Below are positions 18,525 to 61,261 of a stretch of 64,000 bases of DNA, in pieces. Where the stretch lies: the NCBI GenBank assembly GCA_032718475.1, contig JAUCBJ010003840.1, positions 2,184 to 66,183 of the forward strand, written 5' to 3'. Within the stretch, counting starts at the first letter, position 1, and every line of letters starts with the position of its first letter. The notes below the pieces were generated by a model. The model was not told where the DNA came from. It worked only from the letters and a program-made list of their open reading frames with translations, and made no database searches. The position numbers and the translations under genes were made by a program. The stretch comes from Nemertoderma westbladi (taxonomy: Eukaryota; Animalia; Xenacoelomorpha).

Positions 18525-21500
18525 TTAAAAAAAGGTAAGATCTGGACTTGAGATAACATTGTAAGTAATTGTTCCTTGTTTCTTATGTTCCACTCTGTCT
18601 GTAGAATGCAACGGACAGTTTGAATAAGTCAACTTCTTGCCGAACTCACGAGTTGGGGCGATAAATACACAGCCCATAAACTGGTCGCGAACGAGATTCG
18701 AGTTCCAAACCTGGACAAACAATAAATATCGAATACCCGTAACACTTTATTTACGGTTAGGGTTCCTCTTTATTTTAATCATATTTAAGAAACTTTTAAG
18801 GTATAAGGGGGGGGGGGGGGGGGGGGGGTTATGGCTTGGAAGTCATCATTTTGAAATGCTTACTGCACCAAAAAGCGAAAGAGCGAGTAGAAAAAAAAGT
18901 GTAAGATACATTTTGGGTGGACTATATTGAATTGTAATATTACCAAAAAAAAAAATAATTTTTGACGCCACTTAGCGGCCAGAGCCAAAATTGACATTTC
19001 TGACTTAAAATGCTTCTCCTTTGTTATACTTTATTTTCAGAAGTTGTAACCTGTTTTTTTGGAATCAGCATGGCCGATCATTAACAAACCACCTCAGAGG
19101 GTAGAGGCTGGCAGAGGCCCAAGGGAGGTAGATTCATGGGGTGATATAAGCTAACCAATGGGAGGGCTGCACCTGGCGGTTTAGAGTGTTGTATCGACCA
19201 GAGGCCAATGTAATGTGATGGCCTACTATTTTCCCTTTATATTACCGGTCACGTGCATTGTGCAATCAGTTGGCATTTATTCTGTGTAGTAGAGTTGAAA
19301 TAGTTTTCCACCGCTACGCTGTGCTATCATCACTACCGGTACACTGTATTCATCAGTCAGTTGATTAATAGTAAAGTTCACCAAAGAAACTCCTTTATTT
19401 TACCAAATCAGTCAGTCCAACCACCAGTCAGCCATTAGCCGTCGCGCACGTAGGGAACATCACCAAAGTCAAACGGTCGGGATCTCAGTCTAACCTGGAT
19501 CCCGACCCACCAAGTTTTCAAAGAAGCATTGTTTTTTCGTATAAAATGTTATAACCGTTGAACAATTATAAAATTGAAAAAAATGGCTCGAATTTTATTA
19601 TTGCGCACACAAGCAGCTTTCATTTGATACCAAAAACTAACAAATTGGTTGAAAAATGGTGGAGGACTTCCCGCGCAAAAACTGTCCGCGAATATGTGAG
19701 AATAATAATTGAACGACATACTGACTAACATAACACAAGTGTCTTTAATTCTTGTCTTTACCTTTTACTTAATAAATATGTGAAAATGTCTGTCAATATA
19801 TTATATAGCAACACGAAAGCACAAAACCATGCTAAGATTTTAGCTATGGGGATTTTCCTGGTCGCTGAGATTTAATTTCTGAGGTCAGTTCTAACTTTTA
19901 ATCCATGAAATCTAGTTAATCTGTTTCCTGTCTGTCGGTCTTTCTGACTATCCTACGATCTGTTCGTCAAATATAAGAAAAAAGGGCAGATCTTCTAGCT
20001 AAAGGTTTAGCTCTAGAGGTTTTTTCAGGGTCGCAGAATCCATTTCGAGTGTCAGTTTTAACATTTGCTGACTTCCGAATTGTCAGTTTGGCTGTCGGTT
20101 ATATTTTACGTCTATTTTTGACGGACAGGCGGACAGGCTTACTAAGAGGAACGATGACACCAAATTTGAATATTGATATCAGGAATGAAGTCAAGGACCA
20201 AGAAAACCTATAGGAAATTTTTTAGACATATATTGTGAATTATATTGTTTTGGAGACATACTGACGGACAGACCGACAGTAAAACGGACAGACAGCCATA
20301 TTTCGAGGAGTAAGAAAGATCTTGCTAAACAGATTTCATATTTGGAATCTTGATAAAAATCTGCTCTAGATGAAATAGAAAAAAAAATTGGAAAAAACAT
20401 TTGAAAGCCAGTACCTACCCCCAACCCCCCCCCCCCCCCCCCCCCCCGTAAATGTATTATTGAATGGGTATGATGTTATGTAGACCAGTGCATCAGTAAC
20501 TATCACATACAATGAATAGTTTCACTTTCATTCCACCTTCAGTTAACCAACCTGTAAAGTAATAGGTTTATCAGGTTTCTTTCTGTAGATAATAAATGTG
20601 ACCTTCCATGTTGGGTTCACTGTATTCTTTCTTACAGGGCTGCAGACTTTCTGTCCTTCACAATGAACATAGGCATAAGGGTCAGCTCCTGTAACCAATT
20701 AAACAGTATAAATTAAATTAAACAGGTTTTTAAGAATAAATACCGGAAATATGTACCTACCTGCTCACCAACCTACATCCAGCTCACCAACCTACCTCCT
20801 GCTCACCAACCTACCTCCAGCTCACCAACCTACCTCCAGCTCACCAACCTACCCCCAGCTCACCAACCTACATCCAGCTCACCAACCTACCTCCAGCTCA
20901 CCAACCTACCTCCAGCTCACCAGCCACCTCCAGCTCACCAACCTACCCCCAGCTCACCAACCTACATCCAGCTCACCAGCCTACCTCCAGCTCACCAACC
21001 TACCTTCAGCTCACCAACCTACCTCCAGCTCACCAGCCTACCTCCAGCTCACCAACCTACCTCCAGCACACCAGCCTACCTCCAGCACACCAACCTACCT
21101 CCAGCACAGCAGCCTACCTCCAGATCACCAACCTACCTCCAGCTCACCAGCCTACCTCCAGCTGACCAACCTACCTCCAGGTCACCAGCCTACCTCTAGC
21201 TGATCAACCTACTTCCAGCTCACCAGCCTACCACCAGCTCACCAGTCTACATCCACCTCACCAACCTACCTCCAGCTCACCAACCTACCTCCAGCTCACC
21301 AACCTACCTCCAGCTCACCAACCTACCTCCAGCTCACCAGCCTACCTCCAGCTCACCAGCCTACCCCCAGCTCACCAGCCTACCTCCAGCTCACCAACCT
21401 ACCTCCAGCTCACCAGCCAACCCCCAGCTCTCCAACCTACCTCCAGCTCACCAACCTACCTCCAGCTCACCAACCTACCTCCAACTCACCAGCCTACCTC

Positions 21501-60200: not shown

Positions 60201-61261
60201 AGTAATTCCGCGTGCACCTTGGCGACTCCGTATATCGTGTTGGGTCTCTGTACGGTGACATCTGGTGCTGGATCTCTGGGTGTTTCAGGACCGAAGGCCC
60301 CTATAGTCGATGGAATAAATATACGTATCCGATACTGCTTAGCTAACTCGATCACGTTATGTACTCCTTCAATATTGACTTTAATCGCTGTAGAAAAAAA
60401 ATATTTAAAATAAATTAACTTTTTAAGTTGGGTGAATACGTTCTTATTTTGAGATAGAGATTATATACTAATATAATACGGACATAATACAGACGGATAT
60501 AATACGGACGGATATTTTTAAAATTTTAAAAATACGGTAATATTTTTGATTTTTGTTATTGGTATGTATTCTAGAACATTAGAAGATATGTTTTTTATGG
60601 TAGCTAGTGTTTTTTTATTAGCTAGTATTTTTTTAAACTATATAAAAAATGTGAAAAAATTATATTTAGGGAGATACCATGATGTTGTGTGCATATAGAG
60701 GCCTATAACTATTTTGTAATAAATATTGTACAAACCTAAGGGGACGTCCCGTTCCCCTACTGCACTCAAGAGGGCGCTAAAGTGTATCAACCAATTAATT
60801 CGCTTGCTTACAATAATTTCTTGAATATTCTTATAGTCCAGTATATCGCCATATCTAAATAATAAATAAGAGACATCAAAAAACGAAACAATCATAAATA
60901 TGCATTTTCCGTAGCAATATAACTAACGGCCGCGAAAAAACGATTCAAAAAAGCAATGTATATAAAGTGTTGCTTTAATGACTCCCACGGCTTCTCCCGC
61001 TAAAAACCCAATGTACTTTCAGTACACTCACCTAAAAGGTCCTTCATCTAATACTTCCTGTGTTGGCATAACAATATCGGAAAGAATTACGTTTTCTTTA
61101 CCGTATTTTTCTCGTAACAGCTTGGCTGTGCCCATACCAAGTTGGCCCAATCCTCCTGTTATCAGAATTTTTGGTTTATCGGAGCTACAATTTCGGTACT
61201 GCTGGCCGTGGTAATTCTTACCAAATGCCCTGAATGGTAACTTTATTTTATTATAAAGCAT
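54262..61261 (-). CDS. TDH: L-threonine 3-dehydrogenase (mitochondrial, SDR/epimerase fold), 7 exons
   Basis: Exons 61261-61032 ([11 protein letters not shown]), 60854-60736 ([12 protein letters not shown]), 60387-60199 (PSTIGAFGP...[11 protein letters not shown]), 55993-55859 ([16 protein letters not shown]), 55667-55537, 55419-55288 (AMSFTP...DSWP), 54405-54262 (DWGW); all phases consistent. Confidence 0.95.
54608..55305 (-). repeat. 46-bp intronic minisatellite (~15 copies) derived from the TDH exon 6 end plus donor
   Basis: Unit GATTCCTGGACAACGATTGGACGATGAACGG|GTAAGTTCTAGAACG versus exon end GATTCGTGGCCTCAGCGATTGGACGATGAACGG|GTAAGT. Confidence 0.95.
56140..57080 (-). mobile_element. Degenerate RTE-like LINE fragment in TDH intron 3
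   Basis: [27 protein letters not shown] and [11 protein letters not shown] motifs, frameshifted. Confidence 0.8.
57378..60235 (-). repeat. 52-bp intronic minisatellite (~55 copies) derived from the TDH exon 3 end plus donor
   Basis: Unit ATACGGAGTTGTCAAGGTGCACGCGGAATTACTTG|GTTGGTAGTTGGTACAG versus exon ATACGGAGTCGCCAAGGTGCACGCGGAATTACTTG|GT. Confidence 0.96.

What the first reader, a model, noticed from the sequence alone, without database searches (positions are those of the whole stretch)
20755..60235. Recurrent minisatellites built from exon-end plus 5' splice-site junctions
Seen: four unrelated arrays (19, 66-67, 46 and 52 bp units) in two genes each begin exactly at an exon's 3' end. 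Each unit is the last 7-40 exonic nt plus the GT donor plus the first intronic nt, and the arrays extend only into the downstream intron. No array here spans a confirmed acceptor. Inference: either a mutational process is focused on donor junctions (e.g. R-loop, pausing, U1-associated or RNA-templated duplication), or selection tolerates such duplications because the most upstream donor wins. Most unit lengths are not multiples of 3, so the spliceosome must ignore up to ~100 near-identical donors. This would be a distinct route to intron expansion. I do not know a description of it as a systematic phenomenon, but could not search.
Basis: partly seen in the sequence, partly recalled or inferred. 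Interest (0 to 1): 0.85.

Follow-up and report, generated by a model that had tools for sequence, protein, structure and literature searches.

The report
Four splice-donor "mirage" minisatellites
In two neighbouring genes of an animal, four exon ends with their splice signal are copied head-to-tail 4 to 101 times into the next intron; the cell likely uses only the first signal, so this is a dense example of a repeat type already known from lancelets and a few human genes.

Summary
Observation confirmed. Four unrelated arrays (19, 67, 46, 52 bp; 101, 4, 15, 55 junction copies) start 7-39 nt inside an exon of a calpain-5-like gene or a threonine dehydrogenase gene and run into the next intron, filling 20-97% of it. 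All 171 extra copies keep GT, none gives an open frame, and both genes are intact with the first donors. 4 of 14-15 arrays hit a donor against 0.4-0.7 expected; matching for G-rich sense strand raises this to 1.2 (P about 0.02, post hoc). Zero acceptor arrays is not significant. The architecture is in print: lancelet "mirages" (donors and acceptors) and human F7, CBS, IFI6, LMNB2 and PDGF VNTRs, with upstream-donor choice shown for F7. The scan noted the same kind many times on other DNA of this genome, acceptor arrays included, and in other genomes (unchecked notes). No RNA run was listed and no genome is held, so donor use and genome-wide enrichment are untested. Nine paper searches found no genome-wide treatment. 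Verdict: new members of a known kind; the lineage-wide density is the open question.

The parts
18525..44502 (-). Calpain-5-like gene, 13 coding exons (44502-44469, 44294-44125, 42765-42624, 33543-33354, 32188-31996, 31653-31554, 30440-30287, 27596-27401, 27257-27156, 23206-23010, 22795-22668, 20688-20552, 18710-18525), 642 aa
   Evidence: intact ORF, GT-AG introns, 44-50% identity to 6 calpain-5 proteins; the start codon and exon 1 have no homology support
20754..22674 (-). 19-bp donor array: last 7 nt of calpain exon 11 + 12 intronic nt; 101 junction copies; 97% of a 1,979-nt intron; last copy lies 88 nt from the acceptor
33125..33392 (-). 66/67-bp donor array: last 39 nt of calpain exon 4 + 28 intronic nt; 4 junction copies; copies differ from the exon at two synonymous sites
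   Evidence: synonymy read from the sequence
54262..61261 (-). L-threonine 3-dehydrogenase (TDH) gene, 7 exons (61261-61032, 60854-60736, 60387-60199, 55993-55859, 55667-55537, 55419-55288, 54405-54262), 359 aa
   Evidence: intact ORF, 56-60% identity to 6 TDH proteins
54608..55305 (-). 46-bp donor array: last 18 nt of TDH exon 6 + 28 intronic nt; 15 junction copies; two copies (6th and 14th downstream) have a perfect consensus donor, better than the authentic one
57379..60233 (-). 52-bp donor array: last 35 nt of TDH exon 3 + 17 intronic nt; 55 junction copies; weak GTTGGT donor (the same donor hexamer occurs at calpain exon 12)

Best explanation
Each array is a head-to-tail run of an exon's 3' end plus its GT donor that extends into the next intron; it likely arose by ordinary short tandem duplication and slippage or unequal exchange at a G-rich seed, and likely persists because splicing uses the exon-proximal donor. 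Shown: the anatomy, intact ORFs with the first donors, and that every downstream donor would give a truncated frame. Inferred: (1) a one-unit duplication across the junction leaves the authentic exon and donor intact at the upstream end; (2) the unit then expands and homogenises like any minisatellite, with the exon-bound copy left out; (3) the most upstream donor is chosen, as in human F7; (4) rare slips would carry a premature stop and likely be degraded, so the array is nearly neutral and inflates the intron. Exon ends are over-represented partly because they are among the G-rich stretches of these AT-rich genes.
For: Both ORFs are intact only with first donors. 171 of 171 downstream copies keep GT and 114 score at least as well as the authentic donor on a 9-position consensus count. 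0 of 171 give an open frame, although 55 are in frame by length; 170 have a stop inside the retained array, the first at +21, +2, +40 and +6. The authentic unit differs from the array consensus in 4 of 4 arrays. The 19-bp array holds an adjacent three-unit block duplication (code IJKIJK, by eye). 8 of 8 array blocks over 250 bp in the two genes, donor or not, have positive sense-strand G skew (0.23-0.77) against 0.005 for other intron DNA. G-matched nulls raise the expected donor arrays from 0.43 to 1.15-1.24. Upstream choice among identical donors was shown with 50 F7 constructs (PMC1557585; abstract, passages and Discussion read). Lancelet mirages are reported not to disturb splicing (PMC3087553, PMC3902484; passages).
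Against: An excess remains after matching (4 vs 1.2, P 0.015-0.02), and tolerance alone cannot lift donors above plain intron DNA. 4 of 12 other array families carry a donor-like motif in most units or unit pairs with no confirmed exon (0.8 expected, P 0.006, post hoc). Breakpoint microhomology is short or unclear. A shuffle test for repeated multi-unit blocks was not significant (147 and 29 of 300). IFI6 and CBS do use downstream pseudo-sites, and perfect-consensus pseudo-sites competed in F7, so silence is not guaranteed. No RNA from this locus was seen. Both genes lie on one strand, so transcription skew cannot be told from replication skew.
Confidence: 0.6

Rival explanations
1. A transcription- or splicing-coupled process (polymerase pausing, R-loops at G-rich exon ends, or spliceosome-bound nascent RNA) likely focuses duplication or expansion on exon-intron junctions in this lineage, with tolerance acting afterwards.
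For: 4 of 15 arrays at donors vs 0.5-0.7 expected (P 0.001-0.003), still about 3-fold after composition matching. Sense-strand G skew in 8 of 8 large blocks. Donors with arrays have more sense G than those without (13-19 vs 4-16 in 40 nt; P 0.02; the 19-bp case includes duplicated bases). Donor-like motifs in 4 of 12 other families. Many junction arrays noted elsewhere in this genome (unchecked notes).
Against: One window, chosen because of this pattern, so all P values are post hoc. No unit joins two exons or copies spliced RNA; all units are collinear genomic DNA. Acceptor arrays exist in lancelets and in unchecked notes on this genome, against a U1-only version.
Confidence: 0.28
2. The extra donors would be functional: U1 decoys or loading sites, or a length-tuned switch that sends part of the transcripts to decay.
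For: GT is unchanged in 171 of 171 copies; in the 19-bp array G and T are 2 of only 3 invariant positions of 19. All downstream donors lead to premature stops.
Against: Other T and G positions in the 19-bp unit are nearly as constant (0-1 variants in 95), other donor positions vary freely (+6 in 36 of 95), and 36 of 52 positions are invariant in the 52-bp array. The units are unrelated and lie in ordinary enzyme genes. Early stops are common in any intron.
Confidence: 0.07
3. The arrays would be assembly artefacts (stutter around exon ends).
For: No reads or second assembly could be inspected.
Against: Copies are heterogeneous (32 unit types in 95, 24 in 52), differ from the exon at fixed sites, and one distal copy keeps the exon's base (copy 52 of 54). 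The window has no N. The same architecture is in print for other animals. Copy numbers could still be mis-assembled.
Confidence: 0.04

Closest known systems
Amphioxus 'mirage' minisatellites (Adh3, globins BflGb6 and BflGb9, troponin C, PGBD5); PMC3087553 and PMC3902484, passages read; the original Adh3 paper (Canestro et al. 2002) was not held and is known to me only through these
   Same: [quoted passage not shown]
   Different: All four here are donor arrays, whereas mirages take either boundary. Copy numbers reach 55 and 101 (3-6 in BflGb6). Splicing, polymorphism and somatic instability were not measured here.
Human donor-spanning VNTRs: F7 IVS7 (37 bp, 5-9 copies), IFI6/6-16 (25 pseudo-sites), CBS IVS13 (15-20), LMNB2 (100 bp, 10-15), PDGF intron 4 (81 bp, 16-18); PMC1557585
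   Same: First monomer holds the exon end and donor; identical pseudo-donors follow in the intron.
   Different: Scattered single cases in humans; here 4 of 18 coding-region donors in two neighbouring genes. Up to 100 pseudo-donors, 5 of 171 scoring above the authentic site.
Intron gain or change by internal tandem repeats (De Grassi and Ciccarelli 2009, PMC2812944, passages; Rogers 1989 and Zhuo et al. 2007 seen only as references)
   Same: Tandem repeats at exon-intron boundaries alter gene structure.
   Different: No new intron is evident; the arrays enlarge introns whose removal restores collinear homology. I did not test whether these intron positions are conserved in other animals.

Membership tests
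Mirage minisatellite | Tandem repeat whose unit spans an exon-intron boundary | tested here: met
   4 of 4 arrays
Mirage minisatellite | Minisatellite-sized units (10-160 bp in PMC3087553), each locus with its own unit | tested here: met
   19, 46, 52, 67 bp; unrelated in 6 of 6 pairs
Mirage minisatellite | Copies keep splice signals | tested here: met
   171 of 171 keep GT
Mirage minisatellite | Regular splicing undisturbed | not testable with these tools
   No RNA run listed; indirect support from intact ORFs
Mirage minisatellite | Length polymorphism or somatic instability | not testable with these tools
   One haplotype, no reads
Mirage minisatellite | Concerted evolution with boundary copies excluded | tested here: met
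   Authentic unit differs from array consensus in 4 of 4; copy 52 of 54 keeps an exon base; no tree built
F7-type donor VNTR | First monomer spans the donor, pseudo-donors follow downstream | tested here: met
F7-type donor VNTR | Most upstream donor is the one used | not testable with these tools
   No RNA; 0 of 171 alternatives give an open frame
Dispersed mobile element (shared unit, inserted at several sites) | Same sequence at several loci | tested here: not met
   Units unrelated, best match elsewhere in the window 14/19, 35/67, 24/46, 27/52; each derives from its host exon

The most novel reading that the evidence does not exclude
In this animal lineage a transcription- or splicing-coupled process amplifies a gene's own splice junctions genome-wide, so that about a fifth of donors carry arrays and intron size grows mainly by copying splice sites. 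The lineage would be a natural library of thousands of exons each followed by up to hundreds of competing donors, in which position beats site strength.
Probability: 0.25. Interest if true: 0.7.

Novelty: new member of a known kind. Interest (0 to 1): 0.3.

Why it matters
The architecture is known, so the four arrays alone are not surprising. Their value is as a test case. The 19-bp array puts 100 donors between the true donor and an acceptor 88 nt from the last copy, and two copies of the 46-bp array have a perfect consensus donor, the one kind that competed in the F7 experiments. This makes 'upstream wins' against 'strongest or nearest wins' directly testable outside mammals. If 4 of 18 donors is typical of the genome, how mirages arise (called unclear in PMC3087553) could be studied with statistics instead of single loci.

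Tried and rejected
Whole genome: none held, so no genome-wide count. RNA: no RNA holder was listed for window:36100-38000; this is no evidence either way, and no reads could be laid. Rfam: 0 matches in the window at gathering scores and 0 at E up to 1 for 53400-54300. Pfam: 0 families for 5 of 7 frames tried near the 16- and 26-bp arrays and the calpain 5' region, so those arrays could not be tied to a coding exon. Donor-over-acceptor asymmetry: not significant. Selection on GT in the copies: considered and not accepted. Repeated multi-unit blocks: shuffle test not significant. Shared element behind the four arrays: rejected. A microexon for the 8-residue gap after calpain exon 6: 3 candidates, none resembling the homologues. 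Paper searches for a systematic or genome-wide description: (1, 19, 2, 1, 1, 0, 7, 3, 3 papers listed); none found. The library lacks most subscription papers, and no supplements were opened. PMC6823432 and PMC10078293 (passages) did not describe this architecture in the passages shown; other listed papers were seen as listings only.

Full report
Setting. The window is animal DNA. An intronless SAC1 ORF at 36152-37948 (+) is 47-53% identical to its 120 listed best hits; every named one is an animal protein. I did not place the animal more closely. No whole genome is held and no RNA run was listed. TRF gives 51 rows; tandem arrays make up 12.1 kb of 28.2 kb of intron DNA in the two host genes.

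Gene models. Two minus-strand genes host the finding. A calpain-5-like gene (13 coding exons, 44502-18525) gives 642 aa with one terminal stop and 44-50% identity to 6 of 6 references. A TDH gene (7 exons, 61261-54262) gives 359 aa with 56-60% identity to 6 of 6. All 18 introns are GT-AG. The alignment runs through the four array-bearing junctions with at most a 1-2 residue gap in the references, so these donors are well fixed. The weak donor of TDH exon 3 is required by frame and length, and the same hexamer serves calpain exon 12. Calpain exon 1 has no homology support, and there is an 8-residue gap after exon 6.

Observation. Each first unit holds the last 7, 39, 18 or 35 exonic bases and the first 12, 28, 28 or 17 intronic bases, and the copies run only downstream: 101, 4, 15 and 55 junctions. 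They fill 97%, 20%, 77% and 67% of their introns. The units are unrelated to each other and single-locus within the window. Of 18 donors and 18 acceptors, only these four have a near-copy in the adjacent intron.

Consequences for splicing. All 171 downstream copies keep GT. On a simple 9-position consensus count (motif recalled, not a trained model), 114 match or beat the authentic donor and 5 beat it. 55 are in frame by length, yet none gives an open frame to the normal stop: 170 retain a stop inside the array and the other frameshifts. Since both ORFs are intact and conserved, the productive mRNA must use the first donor. How often others are used is not known.

Is it more than chance? With arrays collapsed to one unit, 4 of 15 span a donor against 0.51-0.66 expected (P 0.001-0.002). 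Three other TRF cut-offs give 4 of 11, 4 of 16 and 5 of 25 (P 0.0002-0.003). With one two-block family counted once, it is 4 of 14 against 0.43. Matching for GC gives 0.67 (P 0.003); matching for sense-strand G or for GC plus skew gives 1.15-1.24 (P 0.015-0.02). The matched nulls include the donor arrays' own seeds, which makes them conservative, but the window was picked for this pattern, so none of these P values is a clean test. All 8 array blocks over 250 bp inside the genes are G-skewed on the sense strand, including the four not at donors; 3 of 4 shorter ones scored are not, and the two large arrays outside the gene spans have 0.03 and -0.22. The lack of acceptor arrays is not significant.

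Array history. The exon-bound unit differs from the array consensus in all four arrays: +4 of the donor in the 19-mer, two synonymous exon sites in the 67-mer, one intronic base in the 46-mer and two exon sites in the 52-mer, where a distal copy keeps one exon base. Copies are heterogeneous, 5.1% and 2.7% from consensus in the two large arrays. This is ordinary minisatellite turnover and argues against an assembly artefact, though copy numbers are unverified. Junction microhomology is 0-2 bases by inspection; the 46-bp array ends 8 bases into a further unit.

Mechanism. Best reading (0.6): ordinary duplication and expansion at G-rich seeds, tolerated because the upstream donor is used and slips would be non-productive. 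A junction-focused mutational process (0.28) is not excluded. It draws on the residual threefold excess, the strand skew and donor-like motifs in 4 of 12 other array families (0.8 expected). Function as decoys (0.07) and artefact (0.04) are weak.

What is known. Borensztajn et al. 2006 (PMC1557585; abstract, passages, Discussion) describe minisatellites whose first monomer spans an exon-intron boundary in F7, IFI6, CBS, LMNB2 and PDGF. They show that the most upstream F7 donor is chosen unless a pseudo-site matches the consensus perfectly; IFI6 and CBS leak to nearby pseudo-sites. Ebner et al. 2010 (PMC3087553; passages) use the name 'mirage' for such repeats in lancelets, at both boundaries, call the mechanism unclear and suggest it may be general in cephalochordates. 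PMC3902484 adds troponin C and PGBD5. I found F7 by my own search; the mirage lead came from earlier scan notes and I checked it in the papers. Nine searches found no genome-wide analysis; the library is incomplete.

Earlier scan notes. Of the 8 notes shown, 7 report donor arrays and 2 acceptor arrays (one both) on other pieces of this genome. Of the 8 shown, 7 report acceptor arrays; three notes appear in both lists. One search showed 5 notes on other genomes. These are unchecked AI notes, picked by keyword, and I could not fetch their DNA. They agree that the kind is recurrent and speak against a donor-only process, but are not counted as evidence.

Verdict. Real, locally enriched, and a known kind of repeat. 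Interest 0.3; the lineage-wide density would deserve more if measured.

Noticed in passing
window 49918-49985 (-): 16-bp array of 4 copies whose unit begins exactly at a strong GT donor motif, next to a 60-nt unique stretch; a candidate fifth donor array at an unconfirmed 5' non-coding exon of the calpain gene.
   Followed up: partly
window 50046-53512: 26-bp array of 134 copies with a strong plus-strand donor-like motif in about 9 of 10 units, splitting a short CpG-containing unique segment; no exon, Pfam or Rfam match found.
   Followed up: partly
window 15991-17926 and 38943-42441: The 45-bp array and the 28/32-bp family also carry donor-like motifs in most units or unit pairs without a confirmed exon; the second family starts about 180 nt downstream of the calpain exon 3 donor and is split by a 390-nt unrelated segment.
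   Followed up: partly
window 36152-37948 (+): Intronless, full-length SAC1 ORF (599 aa) nested antisense in calpain intron 3.
   Followed up: partly
window 33563-33681 and 23267-23351: 40-bp and 18-bp arrays end 19 and 60 nt upstream of calpain acceptors without spanning them; a 4-bp microsatellite starts 14 nt after the exon 8 donor (27322-27386).
   Followed up: no
window 43810-43875 and 42980-43000 (-): Two short ATG-started frames in calpain intron 2 end in good donors in phase with exon 3; possible alternative first exons (by eye).
   Followed up: no
window 30278-30298: Two-copy 10-bp repeat across the calpain exon 7 donor at low TRF score; a possible seed or chance.
   Followed up: no
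window 48071-49516 (+): 482-aa open frame with a reverse transcriptase domain (PF00078), likely a truncated non-LTR retrotransposon, between the two genes.
   Followed up: no
window about 1590-3140 and 3140-4700: A direct duplication of about 1.55 kb that includes a retroelement-like stretch (by eye).
   Followed up: no
window 46715-47890: C-rich and G-rich short arrays face each other as inverted arms about 1 kb apart.
   Followed up: no
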